From: a virus
Lineage: Duplodnaviria > Heunggongvirae > Uroviricota > Caudoviricetes
Direction: 5' to 3' (one strand)
Length of the DNA stretch: 42,469 bases
IMG/VR virus record: IMGVR_UViG_2541047705_000011
The notes below the pieces were generated by a model that worked only from the letters and a program-made list of their open reading frames with translations, did no database searches and was not told the origin of the DNA. Shown here in pieces: positions 9,850 to 30,819 of the stretch (positions within the stretch are counted from its first letter, which is position 1; every line of letters starts with the position of its first letter). Both the position numbers and the translations under genes were made by a program.

Positions 9850-9865
9850 GGCCGCGAAAGCGGCC
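9850..9865 (-). terminator. Hairpin GGCCGC-GAAA-GCGGCC, terminator for lipoprotein gene (minus), weaker for plus
   Basis: GNRA-type loop; on minus strand followed by TTGTTTTTA. Confidence 0.55.
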
Positions 9866-9866
9866 T

Positions 9867-9878
9867 GTGACATGTCAC
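9867..9878. repeat. Perfect 12-bp palindrome GTGACATGTCAC (copy 1 of 3)
   Basis: Overlaps lipoprotein stop codon; identical copies at 28357-28368 and 30808-30819. Confidence 0.8.
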
Positions 9879-10255
9879 GCAACGCAATTATTACCGCGCC
9901 ATGTAACATTTTTAATAATCTTATCAGCACCAAACTCAACGTAAACAGAGCAACTGAAATGGAGTGTATAACCGCCATCAGTTGTTGCGTATGTGTTTGA
10001 ATATATAGTATTACCAATTAGATTAGACGTAGTATTATACGTTGTGGTTTGTGGTACGTTATAACTACCAGAGCTTGAGTAAACATACACTCTGTTTCCA
10101 TCTGGAGATGTAAGCTCTCCCTGAGGATACCCCCACTGCTGAACCATTGCGTCTATACTCTGCCCGCGCCACGTAAGCATATTTCTTTCAAACTGTGCAA
10201 CTGACTGGCATCCAACGAGAAGCATAAATCCAAAAATCAAAAATACTTTTCTCAT
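9875..10255 (-). CDS. Lipoprotein (126 aa), candidate superinfection-exclusion/moron protein
   Basis: Start MRKVFLIFGFMLLVGC (lipobox); RBS AGGGG; Thr/Ser/Tyr/Asn-rich mature part; IS1 lies 66 bp upstream of its start. Confidence 0.6.
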   Translation of the reverse strand: MRKVFLIFGFMLLVGCQSVAQFERNMLTWRGQSIDAMVQQWGYPQGELTSPDGNRVYVYSSSGSYNVPQTTTYNTTSNLIGNTIYSNTYATTDGGYTLHFSCSVYVEFGADKIIKNVTWRGNNCVA

Positions 10256-10375
10256 AATTACCCCTATCATGGAAAAACAGCACCAATCCACAAATTAACT
10301 AGTTATTTTATTATTCTTCCGGTGATGCTGCCAACTTACTGATTTAGTGTATGATGGTGTTTTTGAGGTGCTCCA

Positions 10376-10651
10376 GTGGCTTCTGTTTCTATCAGCTGTC
10401 CCTCCTGTTCAGCTACTGACGGGGTGGTGCGTAACGGCAAAAGCACCGCCGGACATCAGCGCTATCTCTGCTCTCACTGCCGTAAAACATGGCAACTGCA
10501 GTTCACTTACACCGCTTCTCAACCCGGTACGCACCAGAAAATCATTGATATGGCCATGAATGGCGTTGGATGCCGGGCAACCGCCCGCATTATGGGCGTT
10601 GGCCTCAACACGATTTTACGTCACTTAAAAAACTCAGGCCGCAGTCGGTAA
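10376..10651 (+). CDS. insA: IS1 InsA
   Basis: Sequence recognised as IS1 InsA ([32 protein letters not shown]...). Confidence 0.95.
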
Positions 10652-11073
10652 CCTCGCGCATACAGCCGGGCAGTGACGTCATCGTCTGCGCGGAAATGGA
10701 CGAACAGTGGGGCTATGTCGGGGCTAAATCGCGCCAGCGCTGGCTGTTTTACGCGTATGACAGTCTCCGGAAGACGGTTGTTGCGCACGTATTCGGTGAA
10801 CGCACTATGGCGACGCTGGGGCGTCTTATGAGCCTGCTGTCACCCTTTGACGTGGTGATATGGATGACGGATGGCTGGCCGCTGTATGAATCCCGCCTGA
10901 AGGGAAAGCTGCACGTAATCAGCAAGCGATATACGCAGCGAATTGAGCGGCATAACCTGAATCTGAGGCAGCACCTGGCACGGCTGGGACGGAAGTCGCT
11001 GTCGTTCTCAAAATCGGTGGAGCTGCATGACAAAGTCATCGGGCATTATCTGAACATAAAACACTATCAATAA
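10570..11073 (+). CDS. insB: IS1 InsB reading frame (expressed as InsAB' fusion by -1 frameshift)
   Basis: Sequence recognised as IS1 InsB; slippery TTAAAAAACTC upstream in the InsA frame. Confidence 0.9.
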
Positions 11074-11117
11074 GTTGGAGTCATTACCTATTCTTCCGAA
11101 CAATACAATTCCGAATA

Positions 11118-11240
11118 CTACAAAGCCGAACCATGCCGCTGCACGCAACAGAGATTCCAATTGAAACCCATTTTTATCAAAATGTATGAATAGCATAAAA
11201 ACGCTGCACATATTAGTACAATAAAAGTTATTTGAACCAT
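11118..11240 (-). CDS. Small hydrophobic peptide (40 aa) with strong RBS, candidate membrane peptide
   Basis: AAGGAG 5 nt before ATG, directly after stop of upstream virion gene; MVQITFIVLICAAFLCYSYILIKMGFNWNLCCVQRHGSAL; below the ORF-track size cutoff. Confidence 0.4.
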   Translation of the reverse strand: MVQITFIVLICAAFLCYSYILIKMGFNWNLCCVQRHGSAL

Positions 11241-11251
11241 CATATCTCCTT

Positions 11252-13726
11252 TTATTGCGGAGTGACATCCTGTGGTCGCCACCAGTATGTCTGGTTAAAC
11301 TCTTTCTTCGAACGTTGCTCCATTTTACGCAAATAGCCTGGTGAAAAATACTCCTGCATCTGGTTAAAGATCATGTGATCGAGAGCCGCCTTCAAGTACC
11401 AGAGATTCGCACCAGGCATCAAACCTTTCCCCAGCTTCACCAGATCACCACCAGTCTGCTCACTCTTCCCTTCCACAGCATTTAACGGTATGCCCTGAGC
11501 AATCTTCACTACGTCATCAACCAGACCAGCTACCGGGCCAAGCATCGACGCCAGCGCGCCGCTTCCGTACCTAGTGTGATCTGACAATAAAAAGTCACCG
11601 TAAAGGCCAAGACCACCACCTTTCAGTAGAGCACCAAGCCAGAATTTTGCGGCATCTTCTCCTGTCATCTCTCGAGAATTACGACCAGACGCAAGGTCGT
11701 TAAGTTGCTGCGACAAAGCGCCAAGAATGGTCGTACTGGCAATAAACGTCGCAATATATGCCGCACGCCCACCAGCAGACGGCATACCCATAGCGCGTGA
11801 CCAGTGACGCATAACAACCGAGATAGGGAACGATTTAAACAGGAAAACACTTCTCGTTAATTCACCTTTCCATGTTCCACGCTGAATACCAGAACCGGTT
11901 ATCAGTTGCTCACGTGCTCCCGGTGTAATAACAGCCATATCAACTTCTTCAGTTACGGCACCGAGCAGTTTACGCATTGCCTCAAATTTCACGCGTTCAG
12001 GCTCACCAAGATGTTTAACTGCTGAATCAGGGATACGCATAATGCTTTCCGGTGTCAGCATCGTATTATTACCGTTCCCCCAGTCCTCCTGTTTCGCCAG
12101 CTTCCATACGCTCCAGTCTGTGTCAGTAATCCCTTTGCTTTTCAGGATACGAAAATCAGAGTCATCGAGGCTACGAAGGTCTGGTGTCCGTGACACTACT
12201 TCTCCCAGGCTTCCCATCATGGTTACGCCATAGGCGCGCTTGTGCGCATCTGACCATGCTGTAAGCCCACTGGCACGCATTACCGCCGTTGCCGCCCAAC
12301 GAGACACTGACGGCCCCATATTATCCATCGCCCAGCGGTTAACGCTGCCAAGTAGAGATTCCATCGCCAGACCAGCGCGGCGCGCCCGCGCAAGTTCTGT
12401 ACGGTTCGTTGGGTCCATAGCTTCAAGCTGGTTGCGGAATAACTGGTTCATTGGAAGGTTGGTAACCTTCGCAGACAGATACATGGTTCCAAGATCAGAG
12501 AACGATGACAGCAACGCGGATCCGAGTCTGCTGGCAACCAGCCAGTTGCGGATATTGTCAGACCATCGCGCGATGTGCGGATTCGCTACAGGCTGTGTCT
12601 TTCCGGAAATAAAGTTGTACAGATTCTCTGTGTTGTTCGCCAGCCGCTCGACTTTACCGGTTTTACTCGGGTTAGCTGTTGCCGTTTCTGCCTTCACCTG
12701 ATCAAGAAGAGAGCGGAAAACATGATCGGGGTTTGGGCCATATGTTTCCACCAGTGCAATATCTTTACTGATACCTTCCAGGTGACCGACCATGATTTCC
12801 CATAGAGAGCGATCGCCATAAAGTTGCTGATATTGCAGATAGGAATCTGCATCTTTGAAATGTATCTGTCGTGATGCATTACCACGGTTAGCACGTGCGC
12901 CGGAAATTCGCATTCCGGTATCAGTAAGCTTATTCAGCCCACCAGTAGCGATCGTGTTATAAGCCTCTCCAAGAAATGAAGACAACTCGGCATCGTTCAT
13001 CAGTTGTCCATCGGCTCGGATATAATATTTGCGATCCAGCTTACCTATAACATCGCTAACCCACTTATCCTTTGATACTGCCCCAACCTTTTCCATAGAA
13101 TGATGTTGAGGGATCCCCCAGTTTTCGAGATAGCCAATGTCCCCACCAGCATCATTAAACCGGCGGCGCAGCAGCTCTGTAACTTCTCTCCACGCCTTAG
13201 CACCGTTTCTTGCTTTAGCATTGCCAGTATTTTGCCCCCGCATTTCATATACCAGGTCACGTACGCCCGCTTCATCTTCAAACAGACCAAAAAAGCGAGG
13301 ATCAACTGCTTCGAATGCCTCCTGCAATTGACTCAATGCATAATCACGAGTGGCTTTTGTTCTGGACTCAACAGAGAGGAAATTCGATTTACCGTCTGCA
13401 TTAAAAGCAATAGTACGGTTAAGAGCGCCAAGTTTCCCATCAGCCCCTTGATAGCTATTGATAAATTTATCCAATCTCTGACGCGCGGCTATAGTGAGAG
13501 CCACACGACGTTTCTTTAATGCCGCTTCTCGCTGTAATTCTTCAGATGCCAATTGTGCTGCTCGATATAGCCGCTCTGATTCGGAAAGTTGTCGCCACGA
13601 CATAGGGTCATCACGAGCAATGGAGCGCATATTTCGATAAATGCGGTCTTCAATGTTCTGTATTTCTCGCGCCGTTAACATGCGCTGCGCCGCCTGCTGA
13701 ACCGCTTGTATACATTCCTGTCTCAT
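11252..13726 (-). CDS. Large internal virion/ejection protein (824 aa)
   Basis: ORF track; last large gene of virion operon, in the position of podovirus injection proteins. Confidence 0.6.
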   Translation of the reverse strand: MRQECIQAVQQAAQRMLTAREIQNIEDRIYRNMRSIARDDPMSWRQLSESERLYRAAQLASEELQREAALKKRRVALTIAARQRLDKFINSYQGADGKLGALNRTIAFNADGKSNFLSVESRTKATRDYALSQLQEAFEAVDPRFFGLFEDEAGVRDLVYEMRGQNTGNAKARNGAKAWREVTELLRRRFNDAGGDIGYLENWGIPQHHSMEKVGAVSKDKWVSDVIGKLDRKYYIRADGQLMNDAELSSFLGEAYNTIATGGLNKLTDTGMRISGARANRGNASRQIHFKDADSYLQYQQLYGDRSLWEIMVGHLEGISKDIALVETYGPNPDHVFRSLLDQVKAETATANPSKTGKVERLANNTENLYNFISGKTQPVANPHIARWSDNIRNWLVASRLGSALLSSFSDLGTMYLSAKVTNLPMNQLFRNQLEAMDPTNRTELARARRAGLAMESLLGSVNRWAMDNMGPSVSRWAATAVMRASGLTAWSDAHKRAYGVTMMGSLGEVVSRTPDLRSLDDSDFRILKSKGITDTDWSVWKLAKQEDWGNGNNTMLTPESIMRIPDSAVKHLGEPERVKFEAMRKLLGAVTEEVDMAVITPGAREQLITGSGIQRGTWKGELTRSVFLFKSFPISVVMRHWSRAMGMPSAGGRAAYIATFIASTTILGALSQQLNDLASGRNSREMTGEDAAKFWLGALLKGGGLGLYGDFLLSDHTRYGSGALASMLGPVAGLVDDVVKIAQGIPLNAVEGKSEQTGGDLVKLGKGLMPGANLWYLKAALDHMIFNQMQEYFSPGYLRKMEQRSKKEFNQTYWWRPQDVTPQ

Positions 13727-13731
13727 TTAAT

Positions 13732-15534
13732 TTAACCTCTCAAGAAACACGCCACAGCGACATCAAACAGGCTGGAATCCTGTATTGCCTGCTCACTTTC
13801 CCTGTTCGCTTCATCCAGTGCTTCACGCGCACTGCGCGATTGTGGATTACCATCATCATCCAGCACGGTGATTATCATGTCAGGTGATTCAAGCAGCGAG
13901 TCTTCAGCTATGCGCAGATCAATATCTCCTGCCTTATCTGACATCATTTTTTGTTCTGCCTGTTGCAATATTTTATCAGGCTCAAAAGGAGCTACTTCGT
14001 CTGGCGTCCTGACCTCTGCTGTTTTATAGAATGAAACAGCCTGAGCATTAAGTTCACTTTCTGCCTGCTGTCTCCGAGCCAGTTCTGCTCGAGCTTCAAA
14101 AAGCTGACCGCCAGGCTCGTGCGGTGCCAACGCGTTACGGGAAAATTCCAGGCGTTCTTGTGCCTGCCGGATTCGTTGATCAATATCGCGAAGTCTGGCC
14201 TGTTTATCTGATCGAGCACGAGACAAAGCTTTACCGCTACCGGTTGGCTCTTCTGCAAGAATTTGTGCACGCTGTTCAGTGAGATTTTCAATAATTCGTT
14301 GGCTATTAGCGATTTCAGACTGGTAAACCTGTCTATCTCCACGCGGCAAAAGCTGCGCGGCCTGTTCTTCAAGCAACCGATTTTCTATAGCACGCGCCGT
14401 TACTCCATCATCTACAGATGACAGAGCCTCATTAACTGCCTGAGACAGCAGACTCTTGCGCCCAGGAATTTCACTGAAAGATGCAGACTCAACAATGCTG
14501 GCAACGTCTACAGGTCTCCCCTGGCTAACATCAGACATAGCTTTTCGCAGAGCCTGAATGTGAGAATTGCGCGAAAGCACGTTGATCGGCACGCCGGGCG
14601 CAATATCAATTTCAGCATGATGAGCGGCATTCGCCGCCAGTGCAGCATCGATATCAACTGGTGAAAAATTTGGTGCGTTTGTAGACTCGCCGCGAGAGTT
14701 AATAAATCTGCCGACACCACCAAACGCCACCCCAAGAACAGCATCAATAGCAATTGCCTGTCGATCCAACACATCATACTGGTTAGCCATTTCGCTATAG
14801 CCACCATCACGAAGTGTTTTTGCAGTAAGCCCACGCTGTGCCATACCGAACGCAATATTTGTACCTGCGGCATAGGCAATATCTGGCGTTGCACGTACTG
14901 CTGTTGCTGCGGCGCGTCGCACTGAACTCTCACCCGTCCGCGCAAGCTGAGCCGCCACACCTTCCGCCAGCGCACCACCAGCACGTAACCCGAGGCTCAT
15001 AGGGATCAGTGTTCCGGCACCAGCAGTAATGCCCTGCACTAATCCCGCTTCCTGCGCCGTCCTGAAATCAACACCCTGTGCTGTCAGCCGTTCAAACTCA
15101 GAAAAACCCTGTAGCGAAGTTACCGCCGCCGCACCTCCGACAGGACCACCGAGCGTTGTACCGACAACAGCCTGCCCGCCCATATCGAACAACCCATAAA
15201 GAACCTGCCCGGCGGTTCCGGTTGTCGCGGCATCAGGCGTCAGCCGCTTAACCTGCTGCTCTGCTAGTTTTCTCTGCTCGGCAATGTATGAAACTGAAGT
15301 ATCATTGAGCGAGGTGTTTTCGTTAATAAACTGAGCAATCGGGGATACGATTTTATCCATCCCTGCCCATAGCAACTGATCTGGCTTTGCCACCAGCCCG
15401 GAGTACAAACCAGACAATGCCGCTCCTACAGCATTGTCGAAAAAACCAACATCGCTGTTAAAGCCCGCTGGATTTGATGCTGCTTCGTCAAGTTGCTGAT
15501 TCTGGTTTACTGGATTAAGGCCAAAGTAACTCAT
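13732..15534 (-). CDS. Internal virion protein (600 aa)
   Basis: ORF track; Gly/Ala-rich N-terminal half and coiled-coil C-terminal half; ATGA overlap with upstream gene. Confidence 0.6.
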   Translation of the reverse strand: MSYFGLNPVNQNQQLDEAASNPAGFNSDVGFFDNAVGAALSGLYSGLVAKPDQLLWAGMDKIVSPIAQFINENTSLNDTSVSYIAEQRKLAEQQVKRLTPDAATTGTAGQVLYGLFDMGGQAVVGTTLGGPVGGAAAVTSLQGFSEFERLTAQGVDFRTAQEAGLVQGITAGAGTLIPMSLGLRAGGALAEGVAAQLARTGESSVRRAAATAVRATPDIAYAAGTNIAFGMAQRGLTAKTLRDGGYSEMANQYDVLDRQAIAIDAVLGVAFGGVGRFINSRGESTNAPNFSPVDIDAALAANAAHHAEIDIAPGVPINVLSRNSHIQALRKAMSDVSQGRPVDVASIVESASFSEIPGRKSLLSQAVNEALSSVDDGVTARAIENRLLEEQAAQLLPRGDRQVYQSEIANSQRIIENLTEQRAQILAEEPTGSGKALSRARSDKQARLRDIDQRIRQAQERLEFSRNALAPHEPGGQLFEARAELARRQQAESELNAQAVSFYKTAEVRTPDEVAPFEPDKILQQAEQKMMSDKAGDIDLRIAEDSLLESPDMIITVLDDDGNPQSRSAREALDEANRESEQAIQDSSLFDVAVACFLRG

Positions 15535-22452: not shown

Positions 22453-22463
22453 ATACACTCCTG

Positions 22464-22484
22464 CAATAAAGGGGCCGAAGCCCC
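22464..22484 (-). terminator. Intra-operon hairpin GGGGC-UUCG-GCCCC plus U-tract (partial terminator or mRNA stabiliser)
   Basis: UUCG tetraloop hairpin then TTTATTG on minus strand, just before next gene's RBS. Confidence 0.4.
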
Positions 22485-22502
22485 TTGTCGGATTCGCGAG
22501 GC

Positions 22503-22847: not shown

Positions 22848-22848
22848 C

Positions 22849-23286: not shown

Positions 23287-23337
23287 CTTCTTTCTCCATT
23301 AGTGGGTCTGTTACGACCCACAGGTTAATAACAGGCG

Positions 23338-24330
23338 TTACACCACGCGGGCTTCTGTTTCCAGAAGCGCATCAGTTTCACGGATTGGTACACCACGGAA
23401 TGAAGTCCACCACTCGCCTTCTGTCTCTTTTACGCTGATCGCCAGAGATGTTTTCTCCAGAGATTGCAGATCAAGAGCCTGGCCTACAGTGCGGTTCATG
23501 TAGAACACCGGGCGACCCATGCCACGATTTGGAATGCGATGCAGTGCTTTAACCATCAACTTCGCAATATTTGCGGCAGAGGATGGTTCTGAAAGATTGC
23601 TGACATCGATGTTTGCAATGCGAACAACATAACGCCAGTCACGCAGAGCAAGTCCGTTATCCCATTTGTAATGGGTACGGTAGCCTTCGTACTTGCCGCC
23701 ATTAGCATCTTCCAGTGTCACCTGGCCTTTATCTTCCATCTGAATGCCAGCCTTCTGCCCTTTCGGGAAGATGCCATGCACGGTGTTTTCGCCCCACACC
23801 ACTAACCAGATTGAGGTGTTATCTGTACCCGTGCCACCAGCATCAATGATGTTCTGAGCATTACCTGCAGACAGGCTGGAATAGCGGGAGGACAGTCCCA
23901 TAAACTGCTGAGGGTTAACGCTGGAATCACCATAAAACAGCGTCTGCGCCATCTGCTGATTCATCGCTTCAATAAATGCGCGGTCTTCAGACAGGCGGAA
24001 TTCGGCGGTATTGCCGTTCAGATCAGCCAGTGACTTATCGACTTCAGCATAGGTTTCCAGCATGCCCACGTAATCGGTTACCTGCACTGTGGTTGATTTG
24101 CTTGGCTGTACGCCATAGTTCAGCAAACGCCAGGTAGCTGAAGGTAAACCAGAACGAATGGTGGTTCGGTGTCCGGTAGGAAGGTTCCCTTCGACAAAAG
24201 GCATATCCTGAAGGATCGGGTTAGTTTGACCGAGAAGCTCGATAATCTTATCGACTTTCCCGTTTTGATCGACGCGCTTACCCCAGTCAGCCAGCGTCAG
24301 CGCAGTTAAGCCTTTAACAGCCATTGTCAT
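23338..24330 (-). CDS. Major capsid protein
   Basis: 330 aa; follows the acidic scaffold gene; size and position typical. Confidence 0.7.
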   Translation of the reverse strand: MTMAVKGLTALTLADWGKRVDQNGKVDKIIELLGQTNPILQDMPFVEGNLPTGHRTTIRSGLPSATWRLLNYGVQPSKSTTVQVTDYVGMLETYAEVDKSLADLNGNTAEFRLSEDRAFIEAMNQQMAQTLFYGDSSVNPQQFMGLSSRYSSLSAGNAQNIIDAGGTGTDNTSIWLVVWGENTVHGIFPKGQKAGIQMEDKGQVTLEDANGGKYEGYRTHYKWDNGLALRDWRYVVRIANIDVSNLSEPSSAANIAKLMVKALHRIPNRGMGRPVFYMNRTVGQALDLQSLEKTSLAISVKETEGEWWTSFRGVPIRETDALLETEARVV

Positions 24331-24338
24331 TTCCTCTC

Positions 24339-25040
24339 TTATTTGCCATAGAGCACTTCGGCCGCACTACGCTGGCCTTCATTACCACCGGTGACCATGC
24401 CATCTTCAGACATCGCCTTTCCGATTTTCACGAACGTTTTGACCAGATCAGGGTGATTACCCAGCCCGGTGGTGTTCAGATATTCTTTGAGTTCAGGTGT
24501 CCCGAACTGGTCAAGCGCACGCTGTGCGGCGCTAAGGTTAGAAATCAACTTGTCGCCACCGATTTCTTTGTCGGCTTTTACATCCGCAGCCCACTGCTCG
24601 GTTGTTTTCTGCCAGGCTTCTGCCTGGCGCTGCTGAACACCTGCCAGAATCTTCGGATAAGCATCAACCAGCTTTTGCGCTTGCTCGTTGGTCAGGTTTA
24701 GTTCTCGCGCCACCGGCTCGAATTCCTTCAATGCTTCTGTATCCAGCTCTACGCCTTCGGCAGCCTGAAACTCGTACTTTTCAGGCGCACCCTCTGGTTT
24801 ATCGCCGTCCTTTTTTTCATCCTGCTTATCGTTTTCAGGCTTTTTGTCATCAGCAGGTTTATCGCCATCAGCAACAGGTTGTGGCTTATCACCTTCCTGT
24901 TGTGATGGATCACCAACTGGAGCAGGGTTATCACCTGCAGGCGCTGACGGTTCTGACGCAGCCGGAGCTGCTCCACCATCGACTGGTTGCTCATTGCAAA
25001 GACGGCGATACAGCAAACGCTCAAATAAATTCATGATCAC
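24339..25040 (-). CDS. Scaffolding protein
   Basis: Acidic, Pro/Asp/Lys-rich low-complexity N-terminal half; between portal and capsid. Confidence 0.6.
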   Translation of the reverse strand: MIMNLFERLLYRRLCNEQPVDGGAAPAASEPSAPAGDNPAPVGDPSQQEGDKPQPVADGDKPADDKKPENDKQDEKKDGDKPEGAPEKYEFQAAEGVELDTEALKEFEPVARELNLTNEQAQKLVDAYPKILAGVQQRQAEAWQKTTEQWAADVKADKEIGGDKLISNLSAAQRALDQFGTPELKEYLNTTGLGNHPDLVKTFVKIGKAMSEDGMVTGGNEGQRSAAEVLYGK

Positions 25041-25333
25041 TCCTGTTCACTGGCCTCTTTGGCCATCTTCAAATACTGTTCAGGGCAATGCGCCATAACG
25101 CGCTGAAACAGTTCCAGCGCCAGATTGCGTTGCCCCTCATTAAATGCCATTGCCATAGCATCCATCGGTGAGATAGCGGAAAACACACGGCCTTTCTCCA
25201 GCACCGACCAGACAACGCGACGCCCCTGTTCACTGCTCATGACAAAGCGAATGTCATCAATTTCACGCTGTGCCATGTCACGTTGCTTACGGGCGTTTTC
25301 TTCTTTCAGTTGATCGTCTTCATAATCTGTCAT
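25037..25333 (-). CDS. Small head-assembly-module protein (98 aa)
   Basis: ORF track; overlaps portal stop and scaffold start. Confidence 0.45.
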   Translation of the reverse strand: MTDYEDDQLKEENARKQRDMAQREIDDIRFVMSSEQGRRVVWSVLEKGRVFSAISPMDAMAMAFNEGQRNLALELFQRVMAHCPEQYLKMAKEASEQE

Positions 25334-27009
25334 TGTGATAGCCCACCCTGACCACTAACTGCATTCGCCATAGCTGACAACACACTCGGATCCGAAGTTT
25401 TAGCTTCGCTTAGCGTCTTGGCCCCCTGTGCCGCCGCCATCCCCATCGCCATCATTTGTTGCTGCTGTTGTTGCTGTGCCCGTTGCTGGCGAGCCTGCTC
25501 AACCTGTTCCTGCGGAACAATGACGGTTGGAGACACTCCGGACATATCAGCGAATGCATCGATCGCCTGATCAACGTTGAGTTTGTCGAGAGCTTCTGGT
25601 TTCGCTTGCGCAAGTTGACCAATGAAGTTAACCGTGGACGCCAGACTGGACAGGCCGATAGACTTCTGCGCCTGAGCCATGACGGAAATGTATTCGACCT
25701 TCAGGGGCATACCTTCCATCGCGTCAGGCGGTGGCGGCAGCATGTTTTTACGCACCATCATCGAGAAAGCGCGGTCAATGAGAGGATTAAGACATTCGTC
25801 GTTCAGACGCTCCAGAACCGGCCCCAACATCAGAAGTTTTTCTTCTTTCATTTCGATCACCGCTTCAACAGGCATCGAGCGGGTATTGATGTTCTGCAAC
25901 ATCATGAACAGATCGACAAAGTAGGCGCTGTTAATGATTTGACGGGTGTCCTGAATGTCTGCCACCAAATCTGCTGTACTGGGGTTAACCAGATAAGCAG
26001 GCCTGAAACCATCCTGACCAGTAATCTGATCGATATACGTGATGTCGCCAGGAAGAAGGGAGGCACGCTGATTCTTGAGGGAAGTCGGAGCAACCATCGG
26101 CGGATTGGTGGCTTTATCAATCAACTGCGACTTGCGCTTCTGGAGAAGCTGCAATGCCTTAACAGGTCCAAGCGCCAGCATACCCGGGCATGATGATCCA
26201 TAAACATCTTCGCCGTTAACTTCCCAGCGCGGAGCCATAATTGGAAACTCATCGAATCCGGACTCACGCAACAACTTGTCGTTATCGCCACCAACCTCGT
26301 AATAAACCGATTTGAATGGCTTGTTCTTGCTATCCAGCTTCGATGTATCGCGGTCAATGTTCGGGTAAACCGAATGCATCACTTCAATCCACTTCTCGTA
26401 GGTGCCGCTTTCCCACATGCTTTTTACGGATTCGCTGACGTTATTTAGTCCGAACTCCTGAACAAGCTGACGAACAGTCATAGAGAACTTGCGAAAACAG
26501 GTGTCCACACTGCCACGAGGTGAGTTAGCCAGGTAGTAACTTCCTATCGGGAATGGCATTGTACGAATGATGTCCTCGTCATCCTCCAGCACCGCCATTG
26601 CGCCAGTGCTGTATGTGCCGAGGCTTCCGTATAACTGCGGCAGCGACTGATAGAGATTCGACTTATTGAACATATCGTTCATGCGGTTCTGCACCGCCTC
26701 AAGCCACAACTTAACAGGGCCATAATCCATCATTTCAGGATCTGGCGTAGCCAGGCGAAACCACGGACGCGCGGGGCTTGTGATGCCTGACATCATGCCG
26801 CTGGCGAGAGTGCGCGCCGCCATAGTCCCGGTCGAATCAATAATGCGTGTATTGCGTCGATCGTTACGGTTGACCTCAGAAGTCAGAAAGCGGGAACCAC
26901 GCGGGTTGATGTAATCACTCAACTCGCGCCAGTGCGGCTCGAACGACTGACGCTCGCTTTCAAGTTGTGCGAACTGTTTGTTCAATCGCTCTTTAGTTGT
27001 TTCCGCCAT
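25330..27009 (-). CDS. Portal protein
   Basis: 559 aa; Gln-rich C-terminal tail (QQRAQQQQQQQMMAMGMAAAQ) like podovirus portals; RBS GGAG. Confidence 0.75.
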   Translation of the reverse strand: MAETTKERLNKQFAQLESERQSFEPHWRELSDYINPRGSRFLTSEVNRNDRRNTRIIDSTGTMAARTLASGMMSGITSPARPWFRLATPDPEMMDYGPVKLWLEAVQNRMNDMFNKSNLYQSLPQLYGSLGTYSTGAMAVLEDDEDIIRTMPFPIGSYYLANSPRGSVDTCFRKFSMTVRQLVQEFGLNNVSESVKSMWESGTYEKWIEVMHSVYPNIDRDTSKLDSKNKPFKSVYYEVGGDNDKLLRESGFDEFPIMAPRWEVNGEDVYGSSCPGMLALGPVKALQLLQKRKSQLIDKATNPPMVAPTSLKNQRASLLPGDITYIDQITGQDGFRPAYLVNPSTADLVADIQDTRQIINSAYFVDLFMMLQNINTRSMPVEAVIEMKEEKLLMLGPVLERLNDECLNPLIDRAFSMMVRKNMLPPPPDAMEGMPLKVEYISVMAQAQKSIGLSSLASTVNFIGQLAQAKPEALDKLNVDQAIDAFADMSGVSPTVIVPQEQVEQARQQRAQQQQQQQMMAMGMAAAQGAKTLSEAKTSDPSVLSAMANAVSGQGGLSQ

Positions 27010-27023
27010 TTCAATGACTCCGG

Positions 27024-27230
27024 TTACTGACCAAGCAGTGTTTTACCGCTGGTATTAGCGGTTGATGTGTCGCCCTGAGAACCGGTAAGCAGCGTAGAAC
27101 TACGACCAGCAGCAGCGCGACGGCGACGAGTTTCTTCGTCGCGGGCATCAACAACGGCGGCATCCTGCTCCTGTGGTGCTGCCTGAACTTCTGGTGTTGC
27201 AGGCACTGACGGTGAGCTACCCATGCACAT
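27024..27230 (-). CDS. Small low-complexity protein upstream of portal (68 aa)
   Basis: RBS GGAGTCATTGAT identical in context to the portal RBS. Confidence 0.4.
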   Translation of the reverse strand: MCMGSSPSVPATPEVQAAPQEQDAAVVDARDEETRRRRAAAGRSSTLLTGSQGDTSTANTSGKTLLGQ

Positions 27231-27268
27231 ATCAATGACTCCGTACGCAATTAAATTATTACCAATTT

Positions 27269-27280
27269 AACCACATATGA
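27269..27280 (-). promoter_or_regulatory. Copy of conserved late-unit motif CATATRTGGTT, upstream of portal unit
   Basis: Minus-strand TCATATGTGGTT then N5 and GGTAATA, 39-50 nt upstream of the 27230 start. Confidence 0.35.
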
Positions 27281-27298
27281 TTTATTTATCGTAGATAG

Positions 27299-27327
27299 TT
27301 GACATTTAACGCACAAATTATTACCTT
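27299..27327 (+). promoter_or_regulatory. Sigma70-like promoter directed toward tRNA-Arg
   Basis: -35 TTGACA, 17-bp spacer, -10 TACCTT, overlapped by an operator-like palindrome. Confidence 0.5.
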
Positions 27328-27336
27328 TCAGGTAAG
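27320..27336. promoter_or_regulatory. Operator-like palindrome ATTACC-TTTCA-GGTAAG
   Basis: 11/12 arm match; overlaps the -10 of the promoter above. Confidence 0.55.
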
Positions 27337-27657
27337 CAAAGGGTTCATTCCGGTTATTAACCTGACTGGCTTGTCGTTAAATTGAACAGGTGGAGTGAGC
27401 TTTTATTTTGAGCAGTACGGCGTATGGCACATGCGCCGATAGCGGTCTGGATACGTTTAAGGGGCACCCTCCCTTGCTCGGGCAAACGAACCAGGTAGCC
27501 GGAATGTGCAAGTCGAGCGGTTTTATTCCGCGCACGGGGATTCACCATCCCGGCGATTCGGTGTGACGCCTCGGAAGAGACGAGGGTACAACGATGAGAG
27601 CATTTATGGAGCCGCGACAAAGTGTGGCGCCTTAACAGGCTAAGTGCTCTCAGCGTT

Positions 27658-27734
27658 GTGGCATTAGCTCAGTCGGACAGAGCAACCGCCTTCTAAGCGG
27701 TTGGTCGCAGGTTCGAATCCTGCATGCCACGCCA
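27658..27734 (+). tRNA. Phage-encoded tRNA-Arg (anticodon UCU)
   Basis: 77-nt cloverleaf: acceptor GTGGCAT/ATGCCAC, D-stem GCTC/GAGC, anticodon stem ACCGC/GCGGT with loop CTTCTAA, T-arm GCAGG-TTCGAAT-CCTGC, discriminator G, encoded CCA. Confidence 0.9.
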
Positions 27735-27777
27735 GAATCACGCCTAAGGACCGTGATGCCAGAAGTTCCAGGGGCTT

Positions 27778-27819
27778 GGCGGTGATGGTTTCCCTTGAAG
27801 GACTATCACCGCCCTTTTT
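27778..27819 (+). terminator. Terminator after tRNA
   Basis: 9-bp stem GGCGGTGAT/ATCACCGCC with 18-nt loop, then CTTTTT. Confidence 0.55.
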
Positions 27820-27897
27820 ACAGCAGGACGCCATTGCGATGACTTCATGCTGTAAACCAGTACAGCCACGGAAGGCATAACTCATTGCTTCCAGTTC

Positions 27898-27921
27898 GCC
27901 CGGTTCGCCGGGCATTTTTTT
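27898..27921 (+). terminator. Strong hairpin plus T7 immediately upstream of moron RBS (terminator or attenuator)
   Basis: GCCCGG-TTCG-CCGGGC, A, then TTTTTTT; RBS AAGGTGAG begins at the next base. Confidence 0.6.
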
Positions 27922-27932
27922 AAGGTGAGATC

Positions 27933-28352
27933 ATGAAAACAATTGATATGTTGGCTAAGTATCTAAATGAATGGCCATTAAAATATTCTCGTATCGTTCA
28001 GGCTGAAGACTGCGTTTTTTATGGCGTTTTTGCTGGTAATGAAATGCATTACGAAGTAATTCAGAGTGAGGGACTGGCCGGGTTAACTCTTAGCGAAGAC
28101 CATGGTACTAGCGTTACGTTCCATGACTGGATAACAGCACAACGTTCTGAAATGGAAAAAGGCGATGTGTTTGATATTTCTCGCGCTGTTTACGCTAAAG
28201 CAAAAAGTGATAATGATTACATGAGCGAACACTTATACAACATGAAGTTACAATGCCTGCATGCGGCGCTTATTCAGAATGGGTACTTCGATAAAACAAG
28301 TGCCATCAATATTGCGGAAGCCATCAACACTGGATTTAATGCCATTAAGTAA
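27933..28352 (+). CDS. Hypothetical moron protein (139 aa), no recognisable family
   Basis: ORF track; only plus-strand gene inside the minus-strand late region; RBS AAGGTGAG; terminator downstream. Confidence 0.6.
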   Translation: MKTIDMLAKYLNEWPLKYSRIVQAEDCVFYGVFAGNEMHYEVIQSEGLAGLTLSEDHGTSVTFHDWITAQRSEMEKGDVFDISRAVYAKAKSDNDYMSEHLYNMKLQCLHAALIQNGYFDKTSAINIAEAINTGFNAIK

Positions 28353-28356
28353 CACC

Positions 28357-28368
28357 GTGACATGTCAC
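28357..28368. repeat. Perfect 12-bp palindrome GTGACATGTCAC (copy 2 of 3)
   Basis: 5 nt after moron stop codon, before its terminator. Confidence 0.8.
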
Positions 28369-28372
28369 AAAC

Positions 28373-28399
28373 AGCCAGCCGATGAGCTGGCTTTGTTTT
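28373..28399 (+). terminator. Rho-independent terminator for moron gene
   Basis: AGCCAGC-loop-GCTGGCT then TTGTTTT. Confidence 0.65.
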
Positions 28400-28442
28400 A
28401 TCCTCATCAGAGGATATCAACGACATTATCCCCACCAGCGGA

Positions 28443-29918
28443 TTAAGCATAGGGATCGTAATCTGTGATGGCCTTGCCTTGCTGGTTCTGCTGCCCGGGA
28501 ATTCGCAGACGCTTCGACACAGGGAACGCAAACGTCAGCAGTAGCGCATCGCCTTTACCCGGCGAACGCCCAAGCCGCTCCTTGATATCCTCCTTCGGTT
28601 CGATAACGATTTTACCGTCCACGCGAACTTTGTACTCTGCCGCCGACAGGTCGTCTGCAGTTTCCTGGTCATCCAGCATGCCGCCCAGCCTCAGCCATGT
28701 CTTACATGAGTTGAACATCTCCCCACGCTTGTTAAGCATCTGCGGGTCAGTGGACGCACCGCCGAACGGAACAAGTTGCCATGTGCGCCCCCAGCCGTCA
28801 CCGATTGACTTCAGACCAGTTCCGTAACCGAAGTCGATGAACACTGCGTCAGCCTGGTACTGGTCTTCAAAGTCAGCGATACGCTTCGCCATAATCAGAT
28901 CGTCAGTGGTCTTGTTGCCAGTCCATAGCACCTTACTGTGCAGCCCCTGCCGCAGGTATATCACAGCGTCATCAACGCCGGAGTACGCCGGGTCAACGCC
29001 GATTATCACCGGAGCATGTGCAACCTGCGCAGCGGTTACCACCCGTTTCATTGCCTCGTCAGTAAGACCGGTAGGGATAAACTGCAATTCAGATGCATCA
29101 GGGAATATGCCGCGCACACGGATTTTAACGAAGTCGCTGTCTTCCCCGTAGTCATCAACCCATTTCTGCAACTGCTGTTTGTTAGTGCCTTCCACCGTCC
29201 GGCTGTCAATCTGCGCACACTTCCAGCGGTGTTTGTACTTGCGGAAACATTCACGGAAACGCCCGGTGTTACGCGTCGGGTTCCCGAACGCCACCCAGAT
29301 GATTTCGGTGTCTTCGTCCGTAAGCGCACCCTCAGCAACTTCCCACACCAGATCCGCAATGTTCGACGCTTCATCGAATACCACGATGATGCGTTTGCGC
29401 TCGTTGTGTAGTCCGGCGAATGCCTCAGTGTTGTGCTCAGACCAGGGGATTGCGTCAGCTCGCCACCGCTTGTCGTGCCCAGGATCATTGCTGTACATCG
29501 CAGTAGCGGTACAGGTAAACCAGTCTTTCGTGATAGCAAGGTTCGACCACTTGATAATTTCCGGCCAGGTCTTCGTTCGTAGCTGGTTGTCGGTGTTGGC
29601 GGTCACCACGACCTTACAATCCTCGCAAGTGGACATGCCCCAGTTGATCAGCATTGAGATGAATGCGGATTTACCAATACCGTGACCAGAAGCGCGTGCC
29701 AGCATAAGCGGCTGATAGCGCGTCTCTGGATTCTGCAGGTGATCACGTATCTCTCGGAACGCATCAGCCTGCCACTGACGTGGGCCGGTAGCATGTGCCA
29801 GTTCAGTACCCTCTTCCCCCCACGGGAACGCATAGAGGGCATAGCCAAGCGGATCGTGAGTGAACCCTGCAATATCCTCGATTAACTGCTCTTCAGGAGA
29901 TAACGCTGTATCTGTCAC
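28443..29918 (-). CDS. Terminase large subunit
   Basis: 491 aa; Walker A ASGHGIGKS near N-terminus; nuclease-type C-terminal half; follows small subunit. Confidence 0.85.
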   Translation of the reverse strand: MTDTALSPEEQLIEDIAGFTHDPLGYALYAFPWGEEGTELAHATGPRQWQADAFREIRDHLQNPETRYQPLMLARASGHGIGKSAFISMLINWGMSTCEDCKVVVTANTDNQLRTKTWPEIIKWSNLAITKDWFTCTATAMYSNDPGHDKRWRADAIPWSEHNTEAFAGLHNERKRIIVVFDEASNIADLVWEVAEGALTDEDTEIIWVAFGNPTRNTGRFRECFRKYKHRWKCAQIDSRTVEGTNKQQLQKWVDDYGEDSDFVKIRVRGIFPDASELQFIPTGLTDEAMKRVVTAAQVAHAPVIIGVDPAYSGVDDAVIYLRQGLHSKVLWTGNKTTDDLIMAKRIADFEDQYQADAVFIDFGYGTGLKSIGDGWGRTWQLVPFGGASTDPQMLNKRGEMFNSCKTWLRLGGMLDDQETADDLSAAEYKVRVDGKIVIEPKEDIKERLGRSPGKGDALLLTFAFPVSKRLRIPGQQNQQGKAITDYDPYA

Positions 29919-30511
29919 TGATTGCCATCCTGACGTTCTTTCAGTCTCTTCCTGGCTGCCGCTATGCGATCAGCAATTGTCACATTCACATTAACATCCA
30001 GGCGTTCTTTGAATGCGTTGACGTCGACGTGCTTACCAATCAGTTCGAGGTTCTTCACCTTGTCAGGCCATTTAATTTTTTTGAGGATTGTCTCTATCGA
30101 ATCCTCGTTCATGTTCATGATGGTCGATGACAGATCAAAGCCGCTAAGCGTAGTGCGCCAGATTTTCGGCCACTCTCGGATTGGCTTAAGGCTACCATCG
30201 TCGTTGAGGATGTCGATCACGTCCATCTGGTCGATCTCCACCAGGCGCATGAGAACGTAATCAGCACTGACGCGCATTCGTTTGTTGCGCTCCTCCATCA
30301 ACTCGGCAATCCGTTTCTGAATGCGTTCATCGCGCATCATGACACTGGCTTTAACTGCCGCTGTATTTGGGGAGAATCCTGCATTAATCGCTGCCTGAGT
30401 CTGGTTTTCAGGCGTTTTGATGTATGACTGGCAATAAGCCTCCTGCATTGCTGTTAGTGGCTTAAATTGCGTTGATTTGCGTTTATAGGTTTTAGGTTCA
30501 GCAGGCATCAT
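29915..30511 (-). CDS. Terminase small subunit
   Basis: Start trimmed to ATG 30511 (MMPAEPKTYKRK); track ORF starts at TTG 30589 with no RBS; overlaps large-subunit start. Confidence 0.65.
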   Translation of the reverse strand: MMPAEPKTYKRKSTQFKPLTAMQEAYCQSYIKTPENQTQAAINAGFSPNTAAVKASVMMRDERIQKRIAELMEERNKRMRVSADYVLMRLVEIDQMDVIDILNDDGSLKPIREWPKIWRTTLSGFDLSSTIMNMNEDSIETILKKIKWPDKVKNLELIGKHVDVNAFKERLDVNVNVTIADRIAAARKRLKERQDGNQ

Positions 30512-30518
30512 AACCACC

Positions 30519-30547
30519 GTGGTAATAGTTACCGTTGTGGTAATAGT
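30519..30547 (-). repeat. Direct repeats GTGGTAATAGT x2 (18-bp period) upstream of terminase small subunit
   Basis: Copies at 30519-30529 and 30537-30547; contain the GGTAAT half-site; lie between an upstream terminator and the TerS start. Confidence 0.5.
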
Positions 30548-30553
30548 ACCATG

Positions 30554-30580
30554 CAAAATAAAGCCGCCATAGTTGGCGGC
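30554..30580 (-). terminator. Rho-independent terminator preceding the late operon
   Basis: GCCGCCA-ACTA-TGGCGGC then TTTATTTTG on minus strand, just after the 30586 stop. Confidence 0.6.
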
Positions 30581-30585
30581 AGTAT

Positions 30586-30798
30586 TCAAAGTCCATCAAA
30601 TTCATCGTAAAAACTCTCGTCAAGATACCCTTCCCATTTACCGCGAATGAAAATTACATCCTCGCCGCAAGGGTGCTGACTGTCGATAACTATATCCCTC
30701 CTGACGCAACCATACTTATGCATGAGAAATTTAACCTCTTTCGGAAAATTTGCTGAGTTATCTCTCATATCTTCAAGGTCGTAGCGTATTTTTGGCAT
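30586..30798 (-). CDS. Hypothetical small protein (70 aa)
   Basis: Start trimmed to ATG 30798 with RBS GAAGGTG; the track start at 30819 is the ATG inside the palindrome. Confidence 0.45.
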   Translation of the reverse strand: MPKIRYDLEDMRDNSANFPKEVKFLMHKYGCVRRDIVIDSQHPCGEDVIFIRGKWEGYLDESFYDEFDGL

Positions 30799-30807
30799 AA
30801 CACCTTC

Positions 30808-30819
30808 GTGACATGTCAC
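30808..30819. repeat. Perfect 12-bp palindrome GTGACATGTCAC (copy 3 of 3)
   Basis: Overlaps stop codon of the 30816-31157 gene. Confidence 0.8.

What the first reader, a model, noticed from the sequence alone, without database searches (positions are those of the whole stretch)
9867..30819. Three perfect copies of the 12-bp palindrome GTGACATGTCAC at accessory-gene boundaries
An exact 12-mer recurring three times in 42 kb is far beyond chance. Each copy sits at a 3' gene end: overlapping the lipoprotein stop (9867-9878), 5 nt after the tRNA-adjacent moron stop (28357-28368), and overlapping the stop of the RHH/Cys-cluster gene (30808-30819). This could be a regulator site, a recombination or module-exchange boundary, or a restriction/modification target.
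Basis: seen in the sequence. Interest (0 to 1): 0.65.

Follow-up and report, generated by a model that had tools for sequence, protein, structure and literature searches.

The report
Conserved phage palindrome tied to RHH protein
The three identical 12-base palindromes are real, are kept at the same gene junctions in related phages, and are most likely the DNA docking site of a small uncharacterised phage DNA-binding protein encoded next to one copy, a protein and site pair that recurs in many unrelated temperate phages.

Summary
GTGACATGTCAC occurs exactly three times, at 9867, 28357 and 30808, and zero copies are expected by chance.

The window is an epsilon15/phiV10-like (Uetakevirus) prophage of E. 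coli. Salmonella phage epsilon15 shares only about 80% DNA identity, yet it has exactly three exact copies at the three homologous junctions.

The general motif is YGTGAC-NN-GTCACR. It travels with one gene family, the 112-aa protein encoded at 30816-31154(-), which is PHROG 536 with no Pfam or NCBIfam family. The predicted fold is ribbon-helix-helix (RHH) plus a four-cysteine cluster.

That gene and 1-3 motif copies co-occur in at least nine phage lineages. One copy nearly always lies in or beside the gene. It is the only window ORF with detectable homologues in these lineages. Lambda, P2 and 57 kb of host DNA have no copy.

Best explanation (about 0.6): the palindrome is this protein's operator. 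It sits at the ends of transcription units, directly beside intrinsic terminators at sites 1 and 2. The ~30-bp palindrome-plus-terminator islands are also the points where accessory-gene cassettes are swapped.

The physiological role is inferred, not shown. A restriction or methylation target is unlikely. A link to the host MatP/matS system is only a resemblance.

The parts
9866..9879 (.). Palindrome site 1. The 12-mer lies at 9867-9878 and the 14-bp form is TGTGACATGTCACG. It contains the TGA stop of the lipoprotein gene.
   Evidence: conserved with its terminator in 71 of 80 relatives; homologous to phiV10 19493 and epsilon15 19517
9839..9866 (-). Intrinsic terminator (AGGCCGCTTTCGCGGCCT followed by a T-run), immediately 3' of site 1 on the minus strand. 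No T-run follows the hairpin on the plus strand.
   Evidence: sequence read
9875..10255 (-). Lipoprotein accessory gene (126 aa, PHROG 3716) with a promoter-like site at 10334-10305. It is one of at least 4 alternative cassettes found upstream of site 1 in relatives.
28356..28369 (.). Palindrome site 2. The 12-mer lies at 28357-28368 and the 14-bp form is CGTGACATGTCACA. It sits between the accessory-gene stop and the terminator.
   Evidence: present after terL in most of 80 relatives; homologous to phiV10 2262 and epsilon15 2142
28373..28401 (+). Intrinsic terminator (AGCCAGCCGATGAGCTGGCT followed by a T-run) for the accessory gene. It lies between the convergent accessory gene and terL.
27933..28352 (+). 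Accessory gene (139 aa, PHROG 4846). It is one of at least 7 alternative genes that abut site 2 in relatives.
28443..29918 (-). Large terminase subunit, convergent with the accessory gene.
30807..30820 (.). Palindrome site 3. The 12-mer lies at 30808-30819 and the 14-bp form is CGTGACATGTCACA. It contains the TGA stop of the RHH/zinc-cluster gene and lies 9 nt upstream of the ATG of the next gene.
   Evidence: homologous to epsilon15 39612. phiV10 has the one-mismatch form GTGACATGTTAC across its record ends.
30816..31154 (-). Candidate binding protein (112 aa, PHROG 536). It has an N-terminal basic helix, a ribbon-helix-helix core and conserved Cys40, Cys79, Cys82 and Cys99.
30586..30798 (-). 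70-aa gene (PHROG 1541) inserted between site 3 and the terminator. It is absent in phiV10-type relatives, which keep only an 8-codon remnant.
30553..30580 (-). Intrinsic terminator (GCCGCCAACTATGGCGGC followed by a T-run) between the early-right operon and the terminase genes.
   Evidence: the same sequence lies downstream of site 3 in phiV10-type relatives

Best explanation
The palindrome is the DNA recognition site (operator) of the phage's own 112-aa ribbon-helix-helix (RHH) plus zinc-cluster protein, encoded at 30816-31154(-), epsilon15 gp49 / N15 gp46 / PHROG 536.

The full site is YGTGAC-NN-GTCACR, which is two inverted 7-bp half-sites. That fits two RHH dimers, or one dimer with extra contacts, bound symmetrically.

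One copy stays with the gene, so the pair moves together between phages. Further copies lie at the 3' ends of transcription units. In this phage two of them directly adjoin intrinsic terminators.

Bound protein most likely controls whether transcription passes these junctions. It could act by autoregulating or gating read-through from the early operon into the terminase and late genes at site 3. At sites 1 and 2 it could act as a barrier for the convergent transcript, on the side of the hairpin that lacks a T-run.

The ~30-bp palindrome-plus-terminator islands are conserved among otherwise divergent relatives. They therefore also serve as crossover points where accessory-gene cassettes are exchanged.

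Shown: the non-random motif, its conservation, its co-occurrence with the gene family, the RHH fold, the position at gene ends and terminators, and the mosaic junctions.

Inferred: that this protein binds the site, its stoichiometry, and any effect on transcription.
For: (1) Three exact copies occur with none expected.

(2) Epsilon15 shares about 80% identity in conserved genes. It has exactly three exact copies at the homologous junctions, while the neighbouring terminator sequences differ. phiV10 has two exact copies and one one-mismatch copy.

(3) The motif GTGAC-N2-GTCAC accompanies homologues of the protein in unrelated phages:
- ZF40 myovirus: 3 copies, one of them 3 nt after the gene.
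- N15: 3 copies, one overlapping the gene's stop in the same register.
- 49 N15-like loci: 105 motifs in 883 kb against 0.84 expected.
- Epsilon15-like loci: 123 motifs in 1.28 Mb against 1.2 expected.
- Yersinia P2-like phage: 1 copy.
- Vibrio phage K233: 3 copies.
- A 61% GC contig resembling Pseudomonas phages: 3 copies.
- A prediction tested on two new lineages, a Mu-like phage and a lambdoid prophage, gave 2 and 3 copies in 20 kb, with one in or at the gene.

(4) Of all window ORFs of at least 45 aa, this protein alone has homologues in two or more of ZF40, N15, the Yersinia phage and K233. It has them in all four.

(5) Of 120 IMG/VR stretches picked only by the 14-mer, 32 carry the gene in the same short stretch.

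(6) Controls have no copy: lambda, P2 and 50 + 7 kb of host DNA.

(8) The half-sites and a flanking pyrimidine/purine are invariant in 129 distinct contexts, while the centre varies. That is the pattern of base-specific protein contacts, not of a hairpin.

(9) Sites are enriched at ORF 3' ends (49% against 12% for random positions) and near terminators (16% against 4%).
Against: - No binding data exist. The protein-site link rests on co-occurrence and adjacency only.
- The half-sites do not co-vary with protein sequence, so specificity cannot be cross-checked.
- About 30% of sites in diverse phages lie inside ORFs, which is unusual for a simple promoter operator.
- Sites next to terminators rather than promoters do not fit a classical repressor.
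- In close relatives single-base variants occur. GTGATATGTCAC at site 2 is seen in 6 loci, and GTGACATGTTAC or GTGAAATGTCAC at site 3 in 3 loci and in phiV10. No single site is therefore essential.
- The C-terminal part of the model has low confidence.
- Many of the counted contexts are phylogenetically related, so the counts overstate the number of independent events.
Confidence: 0.6

Rival explanations
1. RNA-level element. Transcribed as GUGACAUGUCAC at the end of cistrons, just before terminators or before the next Shine-Dalgarno sequence, it would act in the mRNA. It could be a small hairpin or a binding site for the protein's arginine-rich N-terminal helix, for example in N/nut-like antitermination, processing or translational coupling.
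For: - The motif overlaps or follows stop codons, and it precedes a terminator hairpin by 0-4 nt at sites 1 and 2.
- In several lineages it lies directly 5' of a Shine-Dalgarno sequence and ATG: N15 gene 47, the L155-type phages, Vibrio terS, and the 70-aa gene of this window.
- The protein begins with a basic helix, AAERKAAQRARQ.
- The asymmetric centre keeps one orientation at the own-gene site in all 49 N15-like loci.
Against: - The hairpin is only 4 bp and is not kept in all predicted folds.
- The stems never show compensatory changes. The half-site sequence itself is invariant, and so is a symmetric Y/R flank.
- Copies occur inside genes and on the antisense strand, as in N15 repA and ZF40 gp08.
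- The fold is that of DNA-binding RHH proteins.
- No Rfam family matches at the sites.
Confidence: 0.13
2. Host-factor site. The palindrome would be bound by a host protein. An obvious candidate is MatP, whose matS site GTGACRNYGTCAC has the same half-sites with one more central base. That would link phage DNA to host chromosome organisation.
For: - The half-sites are identical to the matS consensus (PMC6907758 and PMC3603311).
- Most of the hosts are enterobacteria or vibrios, which have MatP (from my own knowledge).
Against: - The spacing is 12 bp, not 13 bp, in every site. The only 13-bp matS-type sequence found was a single copy in Vibrio phage K233.
- The motif travels with a phage gene.
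- It is present in a 61% GC contig resembling Pseudomonas phages. That host group lacks MatP (from my own knowledge).
- It is absent from lambda, P2 and 57 kb of host DNA.
- Prophages were reported to avoid matS (PMC3603311).
Confidence: 0.1
3. Recombination site or scar. The palindrome would be the crossover point of a cassette-exchange mechanism, or merely a linker sequence left at mosaic junctions, with no regulatory role.
For: - There are many alternative genes on one side of a constant palindrome-plus-terminator island.
- One relative (L056) has two tandem gene-palindrome-terminator units.
- A remnant of the 70-aa gene (M-x-x-EFDGF) is found after the palindrome at site 3 and before it at site 2 in different relatives.
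- The phage encodes a RecT-type recombinase. RecT is annotated in the relatives.
Against: - No dedicated recombinase accompanies the motif across lineages.
- The motif is conserved inside coding regions of unrelated phages and beside the RHH gene, where no cassette variation is seen.
- A 12-bp scar would not stay exact across about 20% DNA divergence.
Confidence: 0.07
4. Restriction or methylation target. The internal CATG, ACATGT or GTSAC would be a site for one of the phage methyltransferases (1-516; 40374-41024) or for a host restriction system.
For: - The palindrome contains CATG, ACATGT and GTGAC/GTCAC.
- The window encodes two DNA methyltransferases.
Against: - The conserved part is the outer half-sites. 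The centre is TG, GG, AC, GC, CG, GT or CT in other lineages.
- CATG occurs 187 times and ACATGT 9 times in the window without such context.
- A 14-bp target is far longer than type II sites.
Confidence: 0.03

Closest known systems
Ribbon-helix-helix repressors with short repeated half-sites (P22 Arc/Mnt, CopG, omega of pSM19035 with 7-bp heptads, type II antitoxins such as MazE/ParD/TacA)
   Same: - The predicted fold matches these proteins.
- It is a small stand-alone protein with an N-terminal basic arm.
- The target is dyad-symmetric and built from two 7-bp units.
- One site lies next to the protein's own gene, as in autoregulated RHH systems (comparison from my own knowledge).
   Different: - It has an extra conserved four-cysteine module.
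- No sequence match to any Pfam or NCBIfam family or solved structure was found.
- Sites lie at 3' ends of genes and beside terminators, not at promoters.
- There are typically three dispersed single sites per genome rather than an operator array.
- There is no toxin partner.
MatP/matS of E. coli (Ter macrodomain organiser)
   Same: - The half-sites GTGAC...GTCAC are the same.
- The binding protein contains an RHH domain (3vea among the fold hits).
- There are several single dispersed sites rather than clusters, and sites are tolerated inside genes.
   Different: - The motif is 12 bp (N2 centre), not 13 bp (RNY centre).
- The phage protein lacks MatP's four-helix bundle and coiled coil and shows no sequence similarity to it.
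- The system is phage-borne and also occurs in a contig resembling Pseudomonas phages.
Morons and boundary (linker) sequences at mosaic junctions of lambdoid phages (Juhala/Hendrix 2000; Clark et al. 2001; cited from my own knowledge)
   Same: - Accessory genes come with their own promoter and terminator and are inserted between conserved operons.
- Short conserved sequences sit exactly at the points where alleles switch.
   Different: Here the boundary sequence is an exact palindrome that is also conserved in unrelated phages together with a specific protein. This argues for a function of its own.
Late-gene gatekeepers at the end of the early operon (lambda Q with its DNA site at pR' followed by tR'; Mu Mor/C)
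   Same: - Gene position: it is the last gene before a terminator and the terminase or late genes in epsilon15-like phages. It lies just upstream of Mor, Q, lysis or terminase genes in other lineages.
- A DNA site lies between the regulator gene and a terminator that precedes the late genes.
   Different: - There is no similarity to Q or Mor.
- ZF40, N15 and the Mu-like phage carry Q or Mor as well, so this protein is not simply their replacement.
- The site is palindromic.
- No promoter was detected at site 3 by the consensus scan.
CRP (TGTGA-N6-TCACA) and SlmA (GTGAGTACTCAC) sites (both cited from my own knowledge)
   Same: They share outer GTGA...TCAC bases.
   Different: CRP has N6 spacing, against N4 between GTGA and TCAC here. 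The SlmA consensus differs at the four central positions. Neither explains the co-occurrence with the phage gene.

Membership tests
matS (MatP-binding site) | 13-bp consensus GTGACRNYGTCAC | tested here: not met
   All three window sites, and all sites in epsilon15, phiV10, ZF40 and N15, are 12 bp (N2). No N3 form occurs in the window. The consensus is taken from PMC6907758 and PMC3603311.
matS (MatP-binding site) | Bound by host MatP; confined to hosts that have MatP | tested here: inconclusive
   Binding is not testable with these tools. The motif plus the phage gene occur in a 61% GC contig whose only DNA matches are Pseudomonas phages. That Pseudomonas lacks MatP is from my own knowledge.
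Ribbon-helix-helix DNA-binding protein (candidate binder) | Beta-strand, helix, helix core that pairs into a dimer with an antiparallel sheet | tested here: met
Ribbon-helix-helix operator | Short inverted or tandem half-sites with base-specific conservation; bound by the RHH protein | tested here: inconclusive
   The symmetric 14-bp site has invariant half-sites and a variable centre, and it co-occurs with the gene. Physical binding is not testable here.
Pfam PF10723 RepB-RCR_reg (replication regulatory RHH protein) | Score above the Pfam gathering threshold | tested here: not met
   Only 1 of 24 family members gave a weak hit (E 0.034), and the window protein gave none. The hit is precomputed for a few Vibrio homologues.
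Intrinsic (rho-independent) terminator | GC-rich hairpin followed by a T-run | tested here: not met
   The palindrome itself gives only a 4-bp stem and has no T-run. True terminators lie next to it at 9866-9849(-) and 28373-28392(+).
Type II restriction/modification target | The conserved bases are the enzyme's 4-8 bp recognition sequence | tested here: not met
   The central CATG/ACATGT is not conserved across lineages, whereas the outer half-sites are. Methylation itself is not testable here.
Lambda N/nut or Q/QBE antitermination sites | boxA and boxB RNA, or a Q-binding element within a late promoter, with an N or Q homologue | tested here: not met
   The protein matches no N or Q family in Pfam, PHROGs or NCBIfam. 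No promoter-like site was found at site 3. No Rfam match was found.
Site-specific recombination site (att, attC, dif-like) | A cognate recombinase that co-occurs with the site | tested here: not met
   The only ORF shared by the motif-bearing phages is the RHH protein. The integrase lies about 10 kb from the nearest site, and integrase arm sites are annotated elsewhere in epsilon15.

The most novel reading that the evidence does not exclude
A phage-borne counterpart of a matS/MatP-type system. It would be a widespread, so far undescribed family of RHH-zinc proteins that binds a few dispersed YGTGAC-NN-GTCACR sites on temperate phage genomes of Gammaproteobacteria.

It would act as a boundary element rather than a promoter operator. 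For example, bound protein could supply the missing half of one-sided terminators, giving protein-assisted bidirectional termination that insulates the late operons from the accessory genes. Alternatively, it could bridge the sites to fold the phage genome. It might also share ancestry with the host MatP/matS pair.
Probability: 0.2. Interest if true: 0.8.

Novelty: new variant of a known kind. Interest (0 to 1): 0.6.

Why it matters
- It assigns a likely DNA target to a protein family that is annotated only as hypothetical or "transcriptional regulator". The family comprises 233 clusters at 50% identity. It is present in well-studied phages (epsilon15, phiV10, N15, phiKO2, ZF40), and DNA matching the 3.6-kb region around sites 2 and 3 occurs in 1514 of 5426 complete E. 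coli genomes.
- The claim is directly testable: three defined sites and one small protein.
- It explains why accessory (lysogenic-conversion) genes in this phage group are swapped at exactly the same points.
- If the sites control read-through at operon ends, that would address how epsilon15-like phages, which have no Q-type regulator, time late transcription.
- The near-identity of the half-sites to matS raises a question about phage interplay with host chromosome organisation, and that question is testable.

Tried and rejected
An exact 14-mer scan there was not run, because about 4,000 chance hits were expected. Host density was tested on 57 kb of flanking chromosome instead.
- A literature search found no paper containing the 12-mer, nothing on "matS-like" together with phage, and nothing on epsilon15 gp49. 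The epsilon15 genome paper (PMC2698709) is not held, so I cannot exclude that it mentions the repeat. The GenBank annotations of epsilon15 and phiV10 list many sites but not this one.
- Pfam, NCBIfam and PDB sequence searches gave nothing significant for the protein.
- The sequence relation to MatP is rejected. Only the generic RHH fold is shared.
- An RNA hairpin or Rfam family is not supported: the fold is weak and there are no matches.
- The annotated epsilon15 repressor operators (ATTACC-N5-GGTAAT type) are a different sequence, so the palindrome is not the CI operator.
- The one-mismatch copy at 25270 was set aside. It lies inside a gene, is shared with phiV10 (5306) but not with epsilon15.
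- No natural knock-out was found. Every Uetakevirus checked carries the gene.
- Promoter hexamers flanking site 3 were examined by eye. They are weak and were not found by the scan, so I make no Q-like promoter claim.
Full report
**Observation**

GTGACATGTCAC occurs exactly three times in the 42,469-bp window, at 9867, 28357 and 30808. None of 100 dinucleotide-preserving shuffles contained a copy.

Allowing two mismatches adds only GTGCCATGTCAC at 25270, inside a coding region.

- Site 1: the TGA stop of a minus-strand lipoprotein gene (9875-10255) lies inside the palindrome.
- Site 2: the palindrome begins 5 nt after the stop of the plus-strand gene 27933-28352, which lies next to tRNA-Arg (27658-27734).
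- Site 3: the TGA stop of the minus-strand gene 30816-31154 lies inside the palindrome.

All three sites extend to a 14-bp form with a pyrimidine before and a purine after the 12-mer.

Sites 1 and 2 sit 0 and 4 nt from the stems of intrinsic terminators (9866-9849 on the minus strand, 28373-28392 on the plus strand). In each case the T-run lies on the far side of the hairpin from the palindrome.

At site 3 a 70-aa gene (30586-30798) lies between the palindrome and the terminator at 30580-30563 that precedes the terminase genes.

**What the window is**

The region is an epsilon15/phiV10-like podovirus prophage (genus Uetakevirus) of E. coli. Close relatives are integrated next to guaA.

Similar DNA to the 3.6 kb around sites 2 and 3 occurs in 1514 of 5426 complete E. 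coli genomes.

Late genes run on the minus strand: small terminase, large terminase (28443-29918), portal, capsid, the large internal virion proteins and the tailspike.

**Conservation at homologous junctions**

Salmonella phage epsilon15 shares only about 80% identity in the conserved genes. It has exactly three exact copies at the three homologous places:
- 39612, on the stop of gp49;
- 2142, after the large terminase gene and its hairpin, facing a convergent gene;
- 19517, on the stop of gp18, followed by a terminator.

The terminator sequences around them differ from those of the window.

phiV10 has exact copies at 2262 and 19493, and a one-mismatch copy that spans the ends of its linear record.

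In 80 IMG/VR relatives fetched through the large terminase, both nearby sites are present in most. The exceptions are mostly single-base variants, and one locus has a different terminator without the palindrome.

In 80 relatives fetched through the virion protein gene next to site 1, 71 carry the palindrome followed by the same hairpin.

**Mosaic junctions**

At site 2 the terminator side is constant. At least seven unrelated accessory genes begin within a few bases of the other edge of the palindrome. One relative carries two tandem gene-palindrome-terminator units.

At site 1 the ~30-bp palindrome-plus-hairpin island is flanked by at least four different upstream genes and at least three different downstream sequences.

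At site 3 the 70-aa gene is either present or reduced to an 8-codon remnant. A similar remnant (M-x-x-EFDGF) is found on the other side of the palindrome at site 2 in other relatives.

**The motif travels with one protein family**

The gene whose stop lies in site 3 encodes a 112-aa protein, PHROG 536, named there "transcriptional regulator". It has no Pfam or NCBIfam family, and its 726 database relatives are all called hypothetical.

tblastn finds homologues in 154 phage records of quite different kinds. Wherever I looked, the same motif was there.

| Lineage | Protein identity to the window protein | Motif copies |
|---|---|---|
| Pectobacterium myovirus ZF40 | 67% | three TGTGACATGTCACA, one of them 3 nt after the gene |
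| N15 | 35% | GTGACTGGTCAC overlapping the stop of gene 46 in the same register, one copy in repA, one inverted copy between gene 33 and the terminator that precedes gene 32 |
| 49 N15-like loci | 32-35% expected (76-100% to N15 gp46) | copy at the gene's stop in all 49; 105 motifs in 883 kb against 0.84 expected |
| Epsilon15-like loci | 86-100% | 123 motifs in 1.28 Mb against 1.2 expected |
| Yersinia P2-like phage | 39% | one exact copy |
| Vibrio phage K233 | 31% | three N2 copies, one of them 30 bp upstream of the small terminase gene |
| 61% GC contig whose only DNA matches are Pseudomonas phages | 32% | the gene and three copies, one containing the stop codon of the endolysin gene |

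I then used this as a prediction. Two further homologues lie in a Mu-like phage and in a lambdoid prophage. Their 20-kb neighbourhoods hold two and three N2 copies, where 0.02 are expected. In each, one copy lies inside or at the end of the gene.

Further tests point the same way.
- Of 120 viral stretches selected only by the 14-mer, 32 contain the gene in the same short stretch.
- Among all window ORFs of at least 45 aa, this is the only one with homologues in two or more of ZF40, N15 (right arm), the Yersinia phage and K233. It has them in all four.
- Lambda, P2 and 57 kb of host chromosome contain no N2 copy.

**Nature of the site and of the protein**

Across 129 distinct sequence contexts the half-sites GTGAC and GTCAC are fixed by the search. 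The base just outside is always a pyrimidine on the left and a purine on the right. The central two bases vary (AT 76, CA/TG 45, CC/GG 4, AC/GT 3, GC 1). No further flank is conserved.

The unit is therefore YGTGAC-NN-GTCACR, two inverted 7-bp halves.

Invariant bases without compensatory change indicate base-specific protein contacts rather than a hairpin. The RNA hairpin would be only 4 bp and is not stable in all contexts. No Rfam family matches at the sites.

The protein alignment shows a basic N-terminal segment, a conserved core and four conserved cysteines (C40, C79, C82, C99).

The family has 233 clusters at 50% identity in a 1.84-billion-protein library.

**Mechanism proposed**

Best supported is that the palindrome is the operator of this RHH-zinc protein. 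I hold this at about 0.6.

The copy beside the gene lets the pair move together between phages. It is placed to autoregulate, or to gate transcription leaving the early operon.

In every lineage the gene is the last or nearly the last early gene before late regulators (Mor, Q), lysis genes or terminase genes.

Across diverse phages the sites are enriched at ORF 3' ends (49% against 12% of random positions) and near terminators (16% against 4%). About 30% lie inside ORFs.

In this window the hairpins at sites 1 and 2 have a T-run only for the gene that ends at the palindrome. For the convergent transcript the hairpin is followed at once by the palindrome.

A bound protein could therefore stall RNA polymerase at the hairpin and make a one-sided terminator work in both directions. 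This last step is inference from geometry only.

The exchange of cassettes at these points is most simply explained by homologous recombination in the conserved islands. Annotated relatives of this phage encode a RecT-type recombinase.

**Rivals**

- An RNA-level role (0.13) is suggested by the position before terminators and before Shine-Dalgarno sequences and by the arginine-rich N-terminus. It is weakened by the sequence invariance, the symmetric flanks and the antisense copies inside genes.
- A host-factor site, notably MatP (0.10), is suggested by the identical half-sites of matS, GTGACRNYGTCAC. But the spacing is always one base shorter, the motif follows a phage gene, it occurs in a Pseudomonas-type phage, and prophages were reported to avoid matS.
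- A pure recombination site or scar (0.07) does not explain conservation in unrelated phages and inside genes.
- A restriction or methylation target (0.03) is contradicted by the variable centre.

**Comparison with known systems and novelty**

The system works like an RHH regulator with its operator. It resembles MatP/matS in half-site sequence and in having a few dispersed single sites.

It is not a member of matS: the length test is not met. It is not a member of any curated protein family. It is not an N/nut or Q/QBE system.

I found no description of the motif in the searchable literature, nor in the feature tables of epsilon15 or phiV10. The epsilon15 genome paper could not be read.

I rate it a new variant of a known kind: an RHH-plus-zinc protein with single dyad sites placed at gene ends and terminators.

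**Verdict**

- Interest is 0.6. The pair is widespread, uncharacterised and immediately testable. Its physiological role is not established here.

Noticed in passing
window 7882-8805: Rfam finds isrK (7882-7958, +) and a C4 antisense RNA (7977-8064, +). They lie directly upstream of an anti-repressor (Ant) gene at 8068-8805. This is a P1/P7-type immI antisense-controlled antirepressor module inside an epsilon15-like prophage.
   Followed up: no
window 10570-11073: A plus-strand ORF matches a transposase family (PHROG 720). It lies between the end of the virion-protein operon and the lipoprotein accessory gene. It looks like an insertion sequence in the late region; the 8 relatives with the lipoprotein cassette have the palindrome much closer to the virion gene.
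   Followed up: partly
window 30553-30589: RefSeq relatives and phiV10 annotate the small terminase start (TTG, window 30589) upstream of a strong terminator hairpin (30580-30563). The terminator would then lie inside the coding region. The true start is probably downstream of the terminator, as in epsilon15 (198 aa).
   Followed up: no
L088 (Vibrio phage K233) 19491-19503: One canonical 13-bp matS-type sequence, GTGACACCGTCAC, lies on a phage that also has a ParA-like gene and whose relatives are recorded as Vibrio plasmids. This is in addition to its three 12-bp sites.
   Followed up: no
L419 (lambda) 9747 and 19010: Lambda has no N2 motif but has two copies of the one-base-spacer form, GTGACCGTCAC in gene G and GTGACAGTCAC in lom. 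About 0.05 copies are expected by chance.
   Followed up: no
window 25270-25281; L002 (phiV10) 5306: A one-mismatch copy, GTGCCATGTCAC, lies inside the small gene after the portal gene. It is shared with phiV10 but not with epsilon15.
   Followed up: partly
L029, L044, L034 (site 2) and phiV10-type site 3 loci such as L005: A mini-ORF M(H/K)xEFDGF is the 3' remnant of the 70-aa PHROG 1541 gene. It lies after the palindrome at site 3 in some relatives and before the palindrome at site 2 in others, which suggests movement of cassettes between palindrome sites.
   Followed up: partly
window 1-1071 and 40374-42469: The window starts with a DNA methyltransferase (1-516) and an unknown gene next to the lysis cassette. 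It ends with an MT-A70-type methyltransferase (40374-41024, by comparison with relatives) and the integrase (41219-42469). There are thus two different methyltransferases, and the left-end genes are not present at that position in phiV10.
   Followed up: no
L420 and L421: Homologues of the RHH-zinc protein sit just upstream of Mor-type late activators, in a Mu-like transposable phage and in a lambdoid prophage with Mu-like head genes. In the Mu-like phage one motif copy lies inside the transposase gene.
   Followed up: partly
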